The notes beneath the pieces were generated by a model, which worked only from the letters and a program-made list of their open reading frames with translations, made no database searches and was not told the origin of the DNA. From Candidatus Taylorbacteria bacterium RIFCSPHIGHO2_01_FULL_51_15 (lineage in GTDB: Bacteria; Patescibacteriota; Minisyncoccia; Phycocordibacterales; UBA10002), in the NCBI GenBank assembly GCA_001820935.1, contig MHRI01000003.1, positions 3,903-50,383 of the forward strand: a stretch of DNA of 46,481 nucleotides, given 5' to 3'. The position numbers were made by a program, and so were the translations under genes. This document shows positions 186 through 45,106 of the stretch, piece by piece (position 1 is the stretch's first letter; each line of letters starts with the position of its first letter).

Positions 186-345
186 TTCTCCTTTCCGCCT
201 CCGTCAGTTGACGGATGGGGATAAAGGAGGTGGTGAGTTTGCTCGCCCGCGCAAGTTTTGCCCCGCAAAATTTCTTCGGGCAAGGCCGGAGGATTTAAAT
301 CCCTCCTGCATAAGAATGCAGTGCTCCCTTTAGTAAAGGGAGAAT
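186..345. repeat. Mosaic of nested GC-rich hairpin repeats
   Basis: Reverse-oriented module CTCCTTT..AAAGGAGGTGG..GCCGGAGGATTT (cf. 27611-27660, 24644-24695) interrupted by TCCGTCAGTTGACGGA and a second hairpin; followed by CCCTCCTGC..GCAGTGCTCCCTTTAGTAAAGGGAG (cf. 23673-23713). Confidence 0.75.
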
Positions 346-369
346 CAAAGATTTGCTGATACTTTCACT

Positions 370-1242
370 ATGTCTGACGAACGAGAAAAACGAATCGTTG
401 AAATAGAAACGCTCATGGCGAGCGGCGATTTTTGGTTGGATAAAGACAAAGCACAGGAACTCGTCCGCGAATACAACGAGTTAAAGAAAGGGGGTGATGG
501 TGAGAATTTTGATGGAGGCGACGCGATCATGACCATTTTCTCGGGCGCGGGCGGAGACGACGCGGAGGATTTTACGGGCATGCTCCTTACTATGTACCAA
601 AAATACCTGGTGAATCATCGATTGGATATTTCGAACGTGAACGGCAGCGAGAATGATCATGGCGGTTGGCGGAACATAACCTTTGAGATATTAGGCAAGA
701 ATGCGTATGGTACACTGAAGAACGAGAGCGGCGTACATCGTTTGGTGCGCATTTCCCCGTTCAACGCGCAGAAGAAACGGCAGACATCTTTCTCCATGGT
801 GGAGGTGATTCCGAAATTACTTCCCACGGACAAACATGTGGAGATTTCGGAGAGTGAACTTGAAGTTACGACCGCGCGCGCCGGCGGGCCCGGTGGCCAG
901 AATGTCAATAAACGCGAGACCGCGGTACGTATCGTGCATACACCAACAGGTATTTCAGTGCATGTAACCTCCGAGCGCAATCAGGCACAGAATAAAGAAA
1001 AGGGGATGCAGATCATTAAGGGGAAACTATTCAAACTACGAGAAGAAGAACGACTTGCGAAAGAAAAGGGAATACAGGTCTCCAAGACGACCGCGAACGA
1101 ATGGGGAAGTCAGATCCGTTCTTATGTACTCCATCCCTACAAGATGGTCAAAGATCATCGCACTGGTGTTGAAACTACGCAGACAGACAAGGTCTTGAAT
1201 GGAGAACTCGATGAGTTTATCGAGGCGGAAAGAGGGCTTTAA
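370..1242 (+). CDS. prfB: Peptide chain release factor 2, compact N-terminal domain
   Basis: [13 protein letters not shown] (SPF motif of RF2), [10 protein letters not shown] (GGQ), [13 protein letters not shown]. Confidence 0.95.
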
Positions 1243-1264
1243 GGCACGGGAATGGTACGGGAAT

Positions 1265-1293
1265 TTGACATGAGGATCCTCTCATGTTATCAT
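1265..1293 (+). promoter_or_regulatory. Sigma70-type promoter
   Basis: TTGACA (1265-1270), 17-bp spacer, TATCAT (1288-1293) preceded by TG. Confidence 0.6.
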
Positions 1294-1376
1294 ATTGACG
1301 GTGTCATAGCGTGTTTGTAAGCGACTCTTTGCGAGATTGCTGGCACACTGTGCGAACAACCGGTTGGTTTTCTGTT

Positions 1377-1808
1377 ATGAAAAAGTTTCTTGCGGCCATT
1401 GGCGTGCTTACGGTTCTCTACTTTCTGTGGGTCGGAGTCAGTGATTACTCGCTGCGCGACGCCTGCGGAGGGTTAATGTGGTACACAGCACATCCCTCTC
1501 TCATTGGGGACACGTGCGCATTTCTCACCACGGTCTCGCCAGAAGAGATCTGGTCAGGGTGGGCATGTAGGATAGGTGACAAGGTCCTCTACATCTCTCA
1601 CGATGTGCCGACCCTTGCCCTCGGCATTTTATGGGGCATATCGGCTCTTTGTGTGCTCATATGGGGCGCTCGATGCATAGCACGAGCGCGCCTTTTCTTT
1701 ACAGGATTTGCTATACTTGGGAGACCTTTTTACATCCATGAAAAGAAATTCTCTTTGCCGGAATATACCGGTTTTAGCCCATTGTTGCTTCTTTCTCTTT
1801 GTTTTTAG
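1377..1808 (+). CDS. Hypothetical membrane protein; 3' end uncertain
   Basis: ATG 1377 gives MKKFLAAIGVLTVLYFLWVG, with a second hydrophobic helix later; a terminator-like hairpin (1665-1700) lies inside the ORF and the tail overlaps the next gene by 71 nt. Confidence 0.5.
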   Translation: MKKFLAAIGVLTVLYFLWVGVSDYSLRDACGGLMWYTAHPSLIGDTCAFLTTVSPEEIWSGWACRIGDKVLYISHDVPTLALGILWGISALCVLIWGARCIARARLFFTGFAILGRPFYIHEKKFSLPEYTGFSPLLLLSLCF

Positions 1809-43021: not shown

Positions 43022-43026
43022 AAACG

Positions 43027-43079
43027 AATTTCCAATTTCCAATTTCCAATTTCCAAAAAATTTTCAATTACCAATTTCC
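43027..43079. repeat. AATTTCC heptamer array between gnd and pgi/pmi
   Basis: (AATTTCC)4 AAAA AATTTTC AATTACC AATTTCC, ending 3 nt before ATG 43083. Confidence 0.9.
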
Positions 43080-43082
43080 AAA

Positions 43083-44048
43083 ATGGAGGAAGCTATCAGA
43101 AATTTTCATACCCAGTTCTCGTGGAAGCCCGTGATCGTGCACAAAGAGAAACTTCCTTTCGCGAAGGAGTATATTGTTGTGGGGATGGGCGGCTCGCACC
43201 TTTCTGCTGATCTTATCAAGACATACGATCCAAACCTTGATATCGGCGTTTACAGCGATTATGGACTTCCTCCTGTGTCCCCAAGGAGACTTAGAGAGAG
43301 CCTCCTTATCGCGAGTTCCTACTCGGGGAATACCGAGGAGCCGATTGATTTTCTCCGAATTGCCAAAAAGAAAGGCTACGGCGTAGCGGCAATGGGTATC
43401 GGCGGCACACTCATCGAGCTTTCGAGACGATATCGCATTCCTCACGTGGTGATCCCTGACACGAAGATCCAGCCACGCTCCGCCCTCGGTTTTTCGATGA
43501 GTGCGCTCGCGACTCTCATGCGGCATACACGGCTCGCGAGCGAACTTCGTTCGCTTGCAACAGTGCTTACACCCGATTTGCTGGAGCGCGAGGGCAAGAA
43601 GCTGGCGAAGAAGCTAAAGAATTCCGTTCCAGTCATATACGCGTCGGCGGGGAACCGCGCGGTGGCGTATAATTGGAAGATCAAGTTTAATGAGACTGGG
43701 AAAATTCCGGCTTTCTACAATGTGTTTCCCGAACTCAACCATAACGAGATGACCGGCTTTGACCTCATCCCGAGCACCACGAAGCTCTCGAGCGCATTTC
43801 ATTTTATCTTTCTCACTGACACCGCAGATCACCCTAAAAATCAAAAGCGCATGGCTGTCTGCAAGAAACTCTACGAGAAACACGGACTTCCCGTAACCCA
43901 AGTTGCGCTACAGGGGAAAACAGCACTTGAACGCATGTTTCATTCGCTACTCGTGGCCGATTGGACCGCCCTGCATCTTTCGAAAATGTATAGAACAGAA
44001 GCCGAGCAAGTGCCGATGGTGGAAGAATTCAAAAAGCTGATCGCTTAA
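43083..44048 (+). CDS. Bifunctional phosphoglucose/phosphomannose isomerase (SIS)
   Basis: GMGGS, SSYSGNTEE, QPRSA, NETGK, PELNHNE; start at MEEAI. Confidence 0.9.
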   Translation: MEEAIRNFHTQFSWKPVIVHKEKLPFAKEYIVVGMGGSHLSADLIKTYDPNLDIGVYSDYGLPPVSPRRLRESLLIASSYSGNTEEPIDFLRIAKKKGYGVAAMGIGGTLIELSRRYRIPHVVIPDTKIQPRSALGFSMSALATLMRHTRLASELRSLATVLTPDLLEREGKKLAKKLKNSVPVIYASAGNRAVAYNWKIKFNETGKIPAFYNVFPELNHNEMTGFDLIPSTTKLSSAFHFIFLTDTADHPKNQKRMAVCKKLYEKHGLPVTQVALQGKTALERMFHSLLVADWTALHLSKMYRTEAEQVPMVEEFKKLIA

Positions 44049-44190
44049 AAGCACAAAGCACAGCACACAAAGAACAAACAAACATACCAAAGCACAGTAT
44101 CCAAAGAGCCAAACGAGAAAGTAGGTTTGTGTCTTGGGAAATTTGTGCTTTGTTTGGATTTTGGCGAGTTTGTGTTTTATGAAGTTTTAT
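44048..44190. repeat. Inverted AAAGCAC-type heptamer arrays between pgi/pmi and tal
   Basis: AAAGCAC AAAGCAC AGCACAC AAAGAAC.. and TTTGTGTCTTG..TTTGTGCTTTGTTTGG..TTTGTGTTT; same family as 9615-9746. Confidence 0.75.
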
Positions 44191-44197
44191 AAATTTT

Positions 44198-45106
44198 ATG
44201 TCTAAAATCTTCCTAGACGGCGGTGATCCACAAGAAACAAGGGAAGTCGTATCACTCCTGGGGTCTCTCGATGGGCAAACCACGAATCCGACGCTTATCG
44301 CCAAGAATCCCAGGGCGCAAAAATGTCTTGGCGAGCGAACGTGCACGGCCGCGGACATCCTCTCGCTCTATAAGGACCTCGTGCGCGAGATTTCAGAGCT
44401 CATCCCCAAAGGCTCCGTATCAGTCGAGGTGTACGCTGACAGAGAGACAACCACGCAGGATATGCTGAAGCATGCTCGGGAGATGTGGAGCTGGATTCCA
44501 AACGCTCACATTAAATTCCCGACGACCAAGGCGGGGCTAGCCGCGGCGGAGCAATCGATAACGGAAGGTATGCGGGTGAATATGACACTCGTCTTCTCGC
44601 AGGAACAGGCAGCGGCGGTGCATGCGGCGACACGCGGCGCGAAACGAGGAGAAGTCTTTGTCTCGCCATTTATCGGGAGACTCGACGATATCGGCGAAAA
44701 TGGAATGGACCTCATCAAAAACATCAAGCGAATGTACGGTGAAACGGGAAGCCATGTGCAGCTACTCGCCGCCAGTATTCGCTCGACGGAGCATGTTCTT
44801 GCATCCCTCGCATACAACGCTGATATTCTCACGGTTCCGGCAAAAGTCATTAGGTCATGGGTGGAGACGGGGAAGCCCGAGCCACTTTCGCAAGGCGAAA
44901 CTGGAACGGGCAAGCCCGAGGGGGGAGTGAGGGGGGTGGGAGTGCCTGAAGGATTTTCCTACGACGCTAAGGGTCTTACACCTATTCCGTATAAAAGACT
45001 CGACCTTTCAAAGGGATGGCGAGAGTTTAATAGCTCGCACCCGCTCACGGATAAGGGAATCGAGAGGTTTGCCGCTGATTGGAATGCTCTCATAGGAACT
45101 GAATGA
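44198..45106 (+). CDS. tal: Transaldolase family protein with repeat-derived insertion
   Basis: KIFLD, GQTTNPTLI, IKFPTT, VNMTLVFS..QA, VSPFIGRLDD, LAASIR. Confidence 0.9.
   Translation: MSKIFLDGGDPQETREVVSLLGSLDGQTTNPTLIAKNPRAQKCLGERTCTAADILSLYKDLVREISELIPKGSVSVEVYADRETTTQDMLKHAREMWSWIPNAHIKFPTTKAGLAAAEQSITEGMRVNMTLVFSQEQAAAVHAATRGAKRGEVFVSPFIGRLDDIGENGMDLIKNIKRMYGETGSHVQLLAASIRSTEHVLASLAYNADILTVPAKVIRSWVETGKPEPLSQGETGTGKPEGGVRGVGVPEGFSYDAKGLTPIPYKRLDLSKGWREFNSSHPLTDKGIERFAADWNALIGTE

What the first reader, a model, noticed from the sequence alone, without database searches (positions are those of the whole stretch)
186..44943. Candidate system: hairpin repeats that invade genes in-frame, with stand-alone nucleases but no transposase in view
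Seen: one modular family (CC(C)TCC, a small CTCGnnGACTCG or CGAAGAC hairpin, then a CTCC(C)TTTnnnAAAG(G)GAG hairpin) occurs in intergenic clusters at 186, 16950, 23415, 23673, 24550, 30450 and 35850. The same or similar hairpin or short-period DNA lies in-frame inside six genes (DUF559 27611, nfo 33282, uppP 34284, gnd 42610, tal 44864, surface protein 18553), all with intact frames. No transposase or integrase is in the window; a DUF559 and a GIY-YIG nuclease each carry or abut repeats. Known analogies: Rickettsia palindromic elements (in-frame inserts) and REP/RAYT (nuclease-maintained repeats). Inference: a repeat-propagation system using small non-HUH nucleases that also creates new peptide loops.
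Basis: partly seen in the sequence, partly recalled or inferred. Interest (0 to 1): 0.85.

Follow-up and report, generated by a model that had tools for sequence, protein, structure and literature searches.

The report
Nuclease-linked hairpin repeats invading genes
A tiny groundwater/soil bacterium of the Patescibacteria carries dozens of small hairpin DNA repeats that sit between genes and also in-frame inside essential genes, and they share their ends with a small Vsr-like (DUF559) nuclease gene rather than with any known transposase.

Summary
The repeats are real. All seven intergenic clusters exist. The family has 76 perfect pyrimidine-arm/purine-arm hairpins in the 849-kb genome, against 3-8 in shuffles. 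It occurs in 16 of 20 genus-mates.

In-frame invasion is confirmed by filled versus empty orthologues for gnd, tal and the 249-aa DUF559-domain gene. Outside the window it holds for gatB. Hairpins also lie inside the recA, ftsK, guaA and murC-like ORFs (no orthologue check). nfo holds a different 7-nt repeat family. The uppP and surface-protein sites are not supported.

The window has no transposase. The genome gave no hit to Y1_Tnp, rve, DDE_Tnp_1, Phage_integrase or OrfB_IS605.

Stand-alone DUF559 genes are bracketed by cognate hairpins in 15 of 25 cases in relatives and 20 of 21 across the phylum. GIY-YIG flanks gave 0 of 17 and RAYT flanks 1 of 17. The ORF-less composites are collinear with both arms of a DUF559 unit, and one internally deleted intermediate exists.

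Best reading: a DUF559-carrying selfish unit with MITE-like derivatives. Catalysis by DUF559 is inferred, not shown.

The parts
186..352 (.). Intergenic composite: CTCCTTT..AAAGGAGG hairpin with a nested palindrome, a spacer, the central palindrome GGAGGATTTAAATCCCTCC, a TGCATAAGAATGCA hairpin and a CTCCCTTTAGTAAAGGGAG hairpin. It starts 11 nt after the stop of the upstream ORF.
   Evidence: (D8, I6, I18)
16940..17090 (.). Intergenic cluster: AAATCCTCCG, GTCTCGGAGACTCGAC, CCCCTCCTCGGGCAGGAGGGG and a hairpin ending AAAGGAGGAATTAAG, then GGAGAGCTAC.
   Evidence: (D1, D3, D9)
23405..23470 (.). Short cluster upstream of the large surface-protein gene: CCCCTCCACTCGAAGACTCGTG plus CTCCCCTTATTAGGGGAG.
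   Evidence: (D8)
23640..23745 (.). Cluster upstream of tRNA-Gln: CCCTCCTGCCGAAGACGGCAG plus CTCCCTTTGATAAGGGAG.
   Evidence: (D8)
24545..24735 (.). Double cluster between msrA and the VIT1 gene, 96% identical to 16968-17035 in its first part. It ends with GGAGAGTTAC.
   Evidence: (D1, D3, D9)
27609..27661 (+). In-frame half-element (U hairpin CCTCCTTTCCTAAAGGAGG, the GAATCTTCGAG spacer and GGAGGATTT) inside the 249-aa DUF559-domain gene (27144-27893). The 13-aa insert LNSSFPKGGGESS is 27609-27647.
   Evidence: (I1, D11)
30436..30594 (.). Complete composite with outer inverted ends GTAACTCTCCA..TGGAGAGTTAC, two U hairpins in inverted orientation, the central palindrome GAGGGATTTTTAAAATCCTCC, the CTCGCGGACTCGG module, and a nested CCGCCAGCTGGCGG in the loop of the second U hairpin.
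   Evidence: (D5)
35833..35985 (.). Second complete composite, 93-94% identical to the first over its first about 100 nt.
   Evidence: (D5)
42605..42688 (+). 84-nt, 28-aa in-frame insert in gnd (42032-43021). It contains CCACCCCCCTCAC plus the hairpin TCCCCCCTCTTAAGAGGGGGGA (42662-42683). This is the arm type that flanks the second stand-alone DUF559 gene (C30:82522-82871).
44918..44939 (+). 22-nt module in tal (44198-45106), the exact reverse complement of gnd 42649-42670. It lies in a hypervariable loop (about 44858-45034). In other species the same loop holds other palindromes.
   Evidence: (I17)
33282..33312 (+). (GAATATC)4.4 in-frame in nfo (32937-33893). It belongs to a separate family of 7-nt-unit arrays that elsewhere form intergenic inverted pairs.
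27144..27893 (+). Conserved Parcubacteria gene with a C-terminal MTES_1575/DUF559 nuclease domain. It is a target of insertion, not a neighbour of the repeats.
15887..16141 (+). 84-aa GIY-YIG gene, preceded by a 64-nt tandem repeat (15701-15850) of another family. No link to the hairpin family was found.

Best explanation
The hairpins are the ends and debris of a small selfish unit.

FULL FORM (about 0.5 kb). It is a 115-135-aa Vsr-fold PD-(D/E)xK nuclease gene (DUF559) between two hairpin-rich arms. In the 'a' type the order is:
- a U hairpin (CTCCCTTT..AAAGGGAG or CCTCCTTT..AAAGGAGG);
- a small spacer hairpin;
- GGAGG(G)ATTT, then ATG and the DUF559 ORF;
- AAATCCTCCG, the CTCGnAGACTCGG module and CACCTCCTTT..AAAGGAGGAATAA.
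The ORF ends inside the right arm.

SHORT FORMS. Loss of the ORF closes GAGGGATTT/AAATCCTCC into the central palindrome. This gives the 100-200-nt ORF-less composites of the window, which are MITE-like and REPIN-like. Further decay or nesting gives solo hairpins and mosaics.

WHERE COPIES SURVIVE. Copies are found in intergenic space and in permissive protein loops. In loops, only lengths that are multiples of three and free of stops persist. The all-pyrimidine and all-purine arms cannot encode stop codons, which helps.

SHOWN:
- the repeat family exists and is spread across the genus;
- filled and empty sites exist in genes;
- DUF559 is specifically and phylum-wide associated with these hairpins;
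- composites are collinear with the arms of the ORF-bearing unit;
- an internally deleted intermediate exists;
- nuclease clades co-vary with hairpin type;
- the nuclease is under purifying selection.

INFERRED:
- the DUF559 nuclease nicks or cuts at or near its cognate palindrome, as duplex, cruciform or single-strand hairpin;
- host repair then copies an element from another locus, in a homing-like, homology- or microhomology-directed way rather than by transposase chemistry.
For: 1. FAMILY. 76 perfect hairpins against 3-8 in shuffles, 69 with the pyrimidine arm 5'. 16 closed central palindromes against 0. The composite is found in 16 of 20 genus-mates and 1 of 20 genomes of other families in the order.

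2. IN-FRAME FILLED VERSUS EMPTY SITES.
- gnd site 2 is empty in 12 of 14 orthologues.
- gnd site 1 holds a whole composite in G003 and G018, and is empty in G000, G001, G009 and four outgroups.
- The tal loop holds three different palindromes in three species.
- gatB has a complete 126-nt composite in G000, empty in G018, G015, G001 and G009.
- 27 of the 76 hairpins lie in predicted ORFs, including recA, ftsK, guaA, a murC-like gene, comEC and an addA-like gene.

3. DUF559 LINK, RELATIVES. Of 25 stand-alone DUF559 ORFs, 19 have a Y-type hairpin within 150 nt upstream, 18 downstream and 15 on both sides. Density is 5.5 per kb in flanks against 0.39 per kb in the rest of the same loci. Controls: GIY-YIG 0 of 17, RAYT-like 1 of 17 on one side.

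4. DUF559 LINK, PHYLUM. 20 of 21 stand-alone ORFs from 21 genomes have such a hairpin. Density is 51 in 10.3 kb of flanks against 0 in 44 kb elsewhere.

5. ARCHITECTURE. All five a-type units share the same junctions. G000 composites match the left arm up to GGAGGATTT and then the right arm. The composite in G003 gnd is collinear with G003's own unit.

6. INTERMEDIATE. G003:C7 carries a DUF559 gene with its core deleted and its frame shifted, between intact arms.

7. CO-VARIATION. Six hairpin types map to six DUF559 clades with the minimum of 9 changes. The shuffled mean is 17.6, and 0 of 200 shuffles were as low. The f-type hairpin is commonest in the two genomes that hold the f-clade gene: 11 and 5 copies, and 0 in 36 others.

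8. MOBILITY OF THE UNIT. Five a-type units lie in four genomic contexts and three c-type units in three. The site between gene X and gatB is empty in G015 and filled, arms included, in G000 and G018.

9. SELECTION. dN is 0.17-0.33 with dS saturated among a-type ORFs. The best PDB relative is the endonuclease-like protein 3HRL, E 2.8e-13.

10. NO OTHER CANDIDATE IN G000. No hit to PF01797, PF00665, PF01609, PF00589 or PF01385. tblastn with 18 congener RAYT-like proteins gave nothing below E 0.09.

11. PRECEDENT. Vsr-fold free-standing homing endonucleases are known (passages of PMC2677866; table in PMC3424549).
Against: - No biochemistry. PD-(D/E)xK nucleases are not known to carry out strand transfer, so the copying step is conjecture.
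- Four genomes with the composite lack a stand-alone DUF559: G004 (95% complete), G009 (100%), G016 and G017.
- Three genomes have DUF559 without the composite: G007, G019 and G035.
- Within the genus the two do not correlate: 12 of 16 against 2 of 4.
- G000 has one a-type gene against 16 composites.
- No target-site duplication was seen at the gatB or gnd sites.
- Hairpin types were assigned by eye from the flanks. Related genomes are not independent, and groups b, d and e are partly syntenic.
- Hairpins upstream of free-standing endonuclease genes are already known as expression-control elements (PMC2677866). The 3' arms look like Shine-Dalgarno sequences, so part of the association could be regulatory.
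- All genomes are MAGs. G000 is 91% complete with 4.5% contamination, and repeats break assemblies, so a missing enzyme gene cannot be excluded.
- The excess of stop-free frames in composites is modest: 33 of 114 against 22 expected.
Confidence: 0.5

Rival explanations
1. The hairpin repeats spread by some other route, and DUF559 is only a passenger. On this view it is a free-standing homing-endonuclease-like gene that has inserted into the centre of the pre-existing central palindrome GAGGGATTT|AAATCCTCC, which would be its own recognition site. It would ride on the repeats without propagating them.
For: - The ORF sits exactly at the apex of the central palindrome in all five a-type units.
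- Other palindromes, such as CCGCCAGCTGGCGG, are nested in hairpin loops in the same way. Insertion at a palindrome apex is therefore a general theme.
- Vsr-fold homing endonucleases are known.
- Composites persist in G009 and G004, where no stand-alone DUF559 was found.
- There is only one a-type gene against 16 composites in G000.
Against: - In the phylum sample the hairpins are found only next to DUF559 genes: 51 in the flanks against 0 in 44 kb elsewhere. There the gene has hairpins without any dispersed repeat population to parasitise.
- The whole unit, arms included, is present or absent at the X-gatB site.
- The internally deleted copy shows that ORF-bearing units do decay toward ORF-less ones.
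- Each nuclease clade has its own hairpin type.
Confidence: 0.22
2. The family is a REP/REPIN population serviced by a RAYT (an HUH Y1 transposase). That gene would act in trans, would be unassembled in this MAG, or would have been lost recently.
For: - RAYT-like genes occur in 19 of 20 genus-mates.
- Composites are inverted doublets of hairpins, like REPINs.
- RAYT-type palindromes also sit in-frame in tal and gnd of G011.
- G000 is only 91% complete.
Against: - No Y1_Tnp hit in G000, and no tblastn hit below E 0.09 with 18 congener proteins.
- Each of 15 RAYT-like genes whose flanks were read is flanked by its own different palindrome.
- This family was adjacent in only 1-2 of 18 loci. Y-type hairpins were found at 1 of 17, on one side only.
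- G003 has 25 or more composite hits, and all three of its RAYT-like genes are flanked by other palindromes.
Confidence: 0.08
3. No dedicated enzyme is involved. On this view the hairpins are structural or regulatory DNA or RNA elements: Shine-Dalgarno-sequestering stems, terminators or mRNA stabilisers. They would spread by recombination, template switching or slippage at palindromes. They would cluster near DUF559 because that gene needs tight translational control.
For: - The 3' arms read AAAGGAGG, GGAGG or GGAGAGGG, which look like Shine-Dalgarno sequences. In a-type units GGAGG lies 4 nt before the ATG.
- Upstream hairpins are reported for 15 of 16 free-standing endonuclease genes (PMC2677866).
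- In four of the seven window clusters the element begins 9-15 nt after a stop codon.
Against: - Hairpins flank both ends of the gene, and the ORF runs into the right arm.
- Complete composites of 126 nt or more are inserted inside the conserved catalytic domain of gatB and inside gnd, where no regulatory role is plausible.
- There is no marked bias toward 3' gene ends genome-wide: tandem 20 of 461, divergent 9 of 92, convergent 7 of 92 intergenic regions.
- Two other small nuclease genes of the same genomes, GIY-YIG and RAYT-like, lack these hairpins.
Confidence: 0.15

Closest known systems
REP/REPIN-RAYT systems (Pseudomonas, Enterobacteria)
   Same: - Short palindromes in tens of copies.
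- Inverted doublets.
- A small, low-copy nuclease gene flanked by its cognate hairpins.
- Enzyme clades paired with hairpin types.
- True RAYT-REP pairs also exist in congeners.
   Different: - The partner here is a Vsr-fold PD-(D/E)xK nuclease (DUF559), not an HUH Y1 transposase.
- G000 gave no Y1_Tnp hit.
- The elements are frequent inside coding sequence.
- The stems are homopyrimidine/homopurine.
Rickettsia palindromic elements (RPEs)
   Same: - Palindromic elements of about 100-150 nt inserted in-frame in many unrelated housekeeping genes of a reduced genome, adding peptide segments (passages of PMC10969869).
- No transposase is named for RPEs in the passages read.
   Different: - Unrelated lineage (Patescibacteria) and unrelated sequence.
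- Here an ORF-bearing parent-like unit with the same arms is identifiable.
- The same protein loops are hit by several different palindrome families, in different species.
Bacterial MITEs (for example the Coxiella QMITEs; Correia elements are named from recall)
   Same: - Small, ORF-less and multi-copy, with inverted ends.
- Collinear with the ends of a longer ORF-bearing unit.
- Occasionally intragenic.
   Different: - The longer unit encodes no recognised transposase family.
- No target-site duplication was seen.
- The structure is one of nested palindromes rather than simple terminal inverted repeats.
Free-standing Vsr-like homing endonuclease genes (I-Bth0305I family, 'fractured genes')
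   Same: - Same fold superfamily. PMC3424549 groups Vsr, DUF559 and a group I intron homing endonuclease together.
- Free-standing small ORF with a hairpin upstream of the start (PMC2677866).
- Presence/absence polymorphism at a locus.
   Different: - Those genes split inteins, introns or genes in phages and marine metagenomes. They are not reported, in the passages read, to be tied to dispersed genomic repeats.
- Here the ORF sits inside a repeat that has ORF-less copies throughout the genome.
BIMEs of E. coli (mosaics of REP and other motifs; recalled, no paper read)
   Same: Modular mosaics of several short motifs and hairpins in variable order at intergenic sites.
   Different: Different motifs, different associated enzyme, and frequent in-frame copies in coding sequence.

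Membership tests
REP/REPIN-RAYT | A RAYT (Y1_Tnp, HUH) gene in the genome, flanked by the same palindromes | tested here: not met
   No PF01797 hit in G000. tblastn with 18 congener proteins gave nothing below E 0.09. Congener RAYT-like genes are flanked by other palindromes.
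REP/REPIN-RAYT | Short palindromes in many copies, often as inverted doublets | tested here: met
   76 hairpins. 16 composites built as inverted U-hairpin doublets around a central palindrome.
REP/REPIN-RAYT | Essentially extragenic location | tested here: not met
   27 of 76 perfect hairpins lie inside predicted ORFs. Orthologue comparisons confirm in-frame inserts.
REP/REPIN-RAYT | Conserved GTAG or CGTC head on the palindrome (feature taken from the abstract of PMC3733652 as listed) | tested here: inconclusive
   U hairpins begin with C/T runs. GTAG occurs only in some spacers (GGCCGTAGGCC). No systematic test was made.
MITE | Small ORF-less element with inverted ends, in multiple copies | tested here: met
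   Composites of 100-200 nt. Ends are GTAACTCTCC..GGAGAGTTAC or TCTATTCTCCC..GGAGGAATTAAGA. 16 copies.
MITE | Ends shared with an autonomous element that encodes a transposase | tested here: inconclusive
   The ends are shared with a DUF559-bearing unit and a deletion intermediate exists. DUF559 is not a known transposase and its activity is untested.
MITE | Target-site duplication | tested here: not met
   None is evident at the gatB site or at gnd site 1 when filled and empty alleles are compared. Divergence between the species limits this test.
Rickettsia palindromic elements | In-frame insertion into many unrelated genes, adding peptide segments | tested here: met
   gnd, tal, the DUF559-domain gene and gatB by orthologue comparison. 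Hairpins also lie inside the recA, ftsK, guaA, murC-like and other ORFs, by position only.
Rickettsia palindromic elements | Sequence homology to the RPE families | not tested
   No RPE sequence was available from a tool. The lineages are unrelated, so the likeness is one of behaviour only.
Free-standing (Vsr-like) homing endonuclease gene | Nuclease ORF that interrupts its own recognition site and cleaves the ORF-less allele | not testable with these tools
   The ORF lies at the apex of the central palindrome, which is closed in ORF-less copies. Cleavage specificity needs an enzyme assay.
Free-standing (Vsr-like) homing endonuclease gene | Vsr/DUF559-fold catalytic domain, intact | tested here: met
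   PF04480 E 6e-30 to 6e-37. 3HRL E 2.8e-13. The VDF..IE.DG..H motifs are kept in five a-type ORFs, with dN 0.17-0.33 and dS saturated.

The most novel reading that the evidence does not exclude
Patescibacteria would carry a counterpart of the REP-RAYT partnership built on a different enzyme. A Vsr-fold PD-(D/E)xK nuclease (DUF559) would recognise cognate hairpins of anti-Shine-Dalgarno/Shine-Dalgarno form and drive their copying. In some lineages, including this genus, its ORF-less derivatives have multiplied and now remodel surface loops of core enzymes (GatB, Gnd, Tal). That would make it a nuclease-driven generator of protein insertions in minimal genomes.
Probability: 0.33. Interest if true: 0.88.

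Novelty: new variant of a known kind. Interest (0 to 1): 0.78.

Why it matters
- DUF559 is a widespread domain, and none of the 22 listed papers that hold the term concerns repeats, by title or abstract start (25 papers hold it). A specific, phylum-wide tie to cognate hairpins gives it a testable role. That role would be as the enzyme partner of a repeat family, comparable to RAYT for REPs.
- It would give a candidate parent element for RPE-like in-frame palindromic inserts. The RPE passages read name no mobilising enzyme.
- It shows that ultra-small CPR genomes tolerate selfish DNA inside essential genes, and may draw protein novelty from it.
- The same permissive loops are hit repeatedly by different palindrome families, which maps tolerated insertion sites in conserved enzymes.
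- In practice, these repeats break metagenome assemblies and inflate 'hypothetical' insertions in CPR proteins.

Tried and rejected
- GIY-YIG as partner: rejected. 0 of 17 loci have a flanking Y-type hairpin. The gene family is present in 33 of 40 relatives regardless of the repeats.
- RAYT as partner: no gene found in G000. Congener RAYT-like genes have other cognate palindromes.
- Classic transposases and integrases: no own-genome hit to PF00665, PF01609, PF00589 or PF01385. None among 38 window ORFs.
- uppP and surface-protein sites: no repeat match at word size 8, E 0.05. They are treated as ordinary variable loops.
- Rfam at gathering thresholds: only one tRNA match in the window.
- Stop-free design of the composites: only a modest excess, 33 of 114 frames against 22 expected.
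- Bias toward 3' gene ends: not clear genome-wide.
- Target-site duplications: none seen.
- Strict genome-level co-occurrence of composite and DUF559: imperfect. The split is 13 both, 4 composite only, 3 DUF559 only and 20 neither.
- dN/dS: dS is saturated, so no ratio could be computed.
- Expression: no RNA holder listed.
- Population variants: contigs of four DNA runs mostly break at the repeats. One joint, 42595 to 42700, skips 104 nt at the gnd insert in three runs. Its shorter side is only 24 letters and the letters between are not known, so it is too weak to use.
- My gene map is a crude ORF and codon-bias caller. 'Inside ORF' counts rest on it, plus Pfam checks of 18 ORFs.
Supplements of papers were not opened; those of PMC2677866 may show hairpin details that I could not see.
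- Papers seen: PMC3424549, PMC10969869 and PMC2677866 as passages only. All other papers as search listings only.
- The claim that the DUF559-hairpin link and CPR REP-like repeats are not in print rests on the searches.

Full report
SETTING.
The window is G000:C3:3903-50383, in an 849-kb MAG of 36 contigs with about 51% GC. The MAG is 91% complete with 4.5% contamination. The nearest public records of one of its proteins are named Patescibacteria/Parcubacteria MAGs with labels such as Taylorbacteria and Nomurabacteria. The window encodes ordinary housekeeping genes: prfB-like, ftsE/X, pyrG, fba, msrA, nrdA/B, zwf, gnd, pgi, tal, nfo and uppP. It also encodes two giant surface proteins. No transposase or integrase was found among the 38 ORFs scanned.

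THE OBSERVATION.
All seven intergenic clusters are present and belong to one modular family (D1, D3, D5, D8, D9). The fullest copies, 30436-30594 and 35833-35985, are nested palindromes built in this order:
- outer ends GTAACTCTCC..GGAGAGTTAC;
- a U hairpin CTCCCTTTCCTAAAGGGAG;
- a short spacer hairpin;
- a central palindrome GAGGGATTT..AAATCCTCC;
- the CTCGnnGACTCGG module;
- a second U hairpin CCTCCTTT..AAAGGAGG in inverted orientation.

In some copies another palindrome, CCGCCAGCTGGCGG, is nested in a U-hairpin loop. Genome-wide, self-blastn finds 250 repeated regions totalling 26.6 kb, of several families. For this family I count 76 perfect hairpins with homopyrimidine or homopurine stems, against 3-8 in five shuffles. 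Of these, 69 have the pyrimidine arm 5'. There are 16 closed central palindromes against 0 in shuffles. The composite occurs in 16 of 20 genus-mates. It occurs in 1 of 20 genomes from other families of the order.

IN-FRAME INVASION.
gnd. G000 has an 84-nt, 28-aa insert at 42605-42688, after the motif EGF(D/E)V(L/M). Twelve of 14 orthologues lack it, including the closest, which are 83% identical; G017 and G004 hold other inserts at the same site. At a second site, after LF(R/K)DL(A/S), G003 and G018 hold a complete composite in frame. G011 holds a RAYT-type palindrome there, and G010, G014, G017, G004 and G006 hold other inserts, palindromic or partly so in four of them. G000, G001, G009 and four outgroups are empty.

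tal. The loop after K(V/A)IR(S/E)W is short in G001. In G000 it holds the 22-nt module that is the exact reverse complement of gnd 42649-42670. In G003 it holds a U-type hairpin, and in G011 a perfect 43-nt RAYT-type palindrome.

The 249-aa DUF559-domain gene. This is a conserved Parcubacteria protein. Its 13-aa insert (27609-27647) is absent in 13 of 18 homologues and is variable in the four closest.

Outside the window. gatB of G000 has a complete 126-nt composite, 42 aa, between LEEDTATSLH and SL(I/V)DFNRAG. It is absent in G018, G015, G001 and G009, and no target duplication is evident. In all, 27 of the 76 perfect hairpins lie in predicted ORFs. These include comEC, a virD4-like gene, guaA, an addA-like helicase-nuclease, ftsK, recA, a murC-like ligase, two glycosyltransferases and ruvX. 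murB was picked out by a blast hit and named.

Sites not of this family. nfo carries (GAATATC)4.4 in a hypervariable loop, which belongs to a different, 7-nt-unit family. The uppP and surface-protein sites match no repeat.

WHICH ENZYME?
G000 gave no hit to Y1_Tnp, rve, DDE_Tnp_1, Phage_integrase or OrfB_IS605. tblastn with 18 congener RAYT-like proteins gave nothing below E 0.09. RAYT-like genes are present in 19 of 20 genus-mates. Each of the 15 whose flanks I read is bracketed by its own, different palindrome. This family is adjacent in only 1-2 of 18 loci.

G000 has three PF04480 (DUF559) hits. One is the window gene. The other two are stand-alone ORFs on contig C30. Both are bracketed by hairpins of this family:
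- One sits inside a structure collinear with the ORF-less composites. Its left arm ends GGAGGATTT|ATG. The ORF then runs into AAATCCTCCG..CACCTCCTTTAAGAAAGGAGGAATAA.
- The other is flanked by the CCCCCTCT..AGAGGGGG type that is found inside gnd and tal.

Across relatives, I examined 25 stand-alone DUF559 ORFs out of 28 loci. I dropped two that lie in ORFs of more than 400 aa and one with an internal stop. Of the 25, 19 have a Y-type hairpin within 150 nt upstream, 18 downstream and 15 on both sides. Density is 5.5 per kb in the flanks against 0.39 per kb elsewhere in the same loci.

The controls are clean. GIY-YIG loci gave 0 of 17. RAYT-like loci gave 1 of 17, on one side only. In G000 only 36 of 645 intergenic regions hold such a hairpin.

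In a phylum-wide sample, PF04480 was found in 31 of 200 other genomes. Of 30 loci returned I examined 21 stand-alone ORFs, dropping eight in long ORFs and G000's own. Twenty of the 21 have a Y-type hairpin nearby. The count is 51 hairpins in 10.3 kb of flanks against 0 in 44 kb of the remaining locus sequence.

PARENT AND DERIVATIVE.
- All five a-type units (G000, G018, G015, G003, G001) share the same junctions, and the composite in G003 gnd is collinear with G003's own unit.
- G003:C7 holds a unit whose DUF559 core is deleted and frameshifted while its arms are intact. This is an intermediate between the full and the ORF-less forms.
- DUF559 clades match hairpin types with the minimum possible number of changes: 9, against a shuffled mean of 17.6, with 0 of 200 shuffles as low. 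Two caveats apply. I assigned the hairpin types by eye, and related genomes are not independent.
- a-type units occupy four contexts among five genomes, and c-type units three among three.
- The site between a 329-aa gene and gatB is empty in G015. It holds another palindrome in G009, an a-type unit in G000 and G018, a c-type unit in G001 and a RAYT-like gene in G004.
- The f-type hairpin has 11 and 5 copies in the two genomes with the f-clade gene. It has 4, 2 and 1 copies in three others, and none in the remaining 36.
- The a-type proteins keep the catalytic motifs, with dN 0.17-0.33 and saturated dS. Their best solved relative is the endonuclease-like protein 3HRL.

AGAINST THE NUCLEASE-DRIVEN READING.
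- Four genomes with the composite lack a stand-alone DUF559: G004, G009, G016 and G017.
- Three genomes have DUF559 without the composite: G007, G019 and G035.
- Within the genus there is no correlation.
- No target duplication was seen.
- PD-(D/E)xK nucleases are not known transposases.
- Hairpins upstream of free-standing endonuclease genes are already described as expression-control elements (PMC2677866, passages), and the 3' arms here look like Shine-Dalgarno sequences.
- All the data come from MAGs, whose assemblies break at these repeats.

COMPARISON WITH KNOWN SYSTEMS.
The family behaves like REP/REPIN-RAYT in having a low-copy nuclease with cognate hairpins. It fails membership of that class on the enzyme and on extragenic location. 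It behaves like the Rickettsia RPEs in its in-frame inserts (PMC10969869, passages). It behaves like MITEs in having ORF-less derivatives of an ORF-bearing unit, but it shows no target duplication and no recognised transposase.

Vsr-fold homing endonucleases are a precedent for a selfish DUF559-like gene (PMC3424549 and PMC2677866, passages). Searches for DUF559, for Vsr-like enzymes with palindromic repeats, for palindromic in-frame repeats in Patescibacteria, and for CPR with RAYT or REPIN listed no paper that describes this link.

VERDICT.
I rate it a new variant of a known kind. The enzyme's role is still to be shown.

Noticed in passing
window 44048-44198, 8644-8686, 14597-14621, 42005-42033 and 43027-43083; genome examples C7:19095-19229, C9:12328-12456, C30:52999-53135: Other intergenic repeat families made of 7-nt units form imperfect palindromes of about 130 nt that fill whole spacers. 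Examples are AATTATTCTAATT..CTTAGGTCAATTAGAATAATT and AAAGCACAAAGCACA..TGTGCTTTG. In four metagenome runs, summed contig depth over the two bins covering 41976-43299 is the highest of the stretch laid.
   Followed up: partly
window 16211-16261 and 32797-32840; genome C9:693-742, C9:29804-29849, C34:2081-2120: Perfect 36-40-nt palindromes of the form TTTAGCA-N-TGCTAAA occur in three stem variants. They resemble the palindrome upstream of a RAYT-like gene in G002 (TTTAGGCAACATCGGATGTTGCCTAAA). G000 gave no RAYT hit, although it holds such REP-like repeats.
   Followed up: partly
loci L050-L064 (genus-mates and G027): RAYT-like genes of about 235 aa with the NHFHLL motif occur in 19 of 20 genus-mates. 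Each of those read is bracketed by its own cognate palindrome. RAYT-type palindromes also sit in-frame in tal and gnd of G011.
   Followed up: partly
window 15701-15850: A 64-nt tandem repeat of 2.3 copies, 97% matching, lies between tRNA-Gln and the GIY-YIG gene. Related units occur at C23:11529-11733 and C11:13124-13202.
   Followed up: no
window 15534-15606 and 23779-23852: ARAGORN calls two tRNA-Gln(CTG) genes. Only the first reaches the Rfam gathering score. The second lies just after a hairpin cluster.
   Followed up: no
loci L233-L236 and L150 (the site between a 329-aa gene and gatB): This one intergenic site holds, in different species, nothing, another palindrome, an a-type DUF559 unit, a c-type DUF559 unit or a RAYT-like gene. 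gatB is inverted relative to the neighbouring gene in G001 and G004.
   Followed up: partly
gnd of G017 (locus L025) and gatB of G004 (locus L234): A third kind of in-frame insert encodes peptides such as TRMNAD and DRRGYTG, from GACGCGGAT-type short repeats. G000 gnd 42620-42650 has a similar stretch, GACGCAGACAGACGCAGAC.
   Followed up: no
whole genome G000: No PF00589 (Phage_integrase) hit at E 0.01, so no XerC/D-type recombinase was detected in the 91%-complete MAG. All 14 control genomes gave a hit.
   Followed up: no
window 26286-27392 (- strand) against 27144-27893 (+ strand): The long minus-strand ORF with an IMP-cyclohydrolase-like domain (aa 139-348) overlaps the start of the DUF559-domain gene by about 250 nt. 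Its true start is probably further downstream.
   Followed up: no
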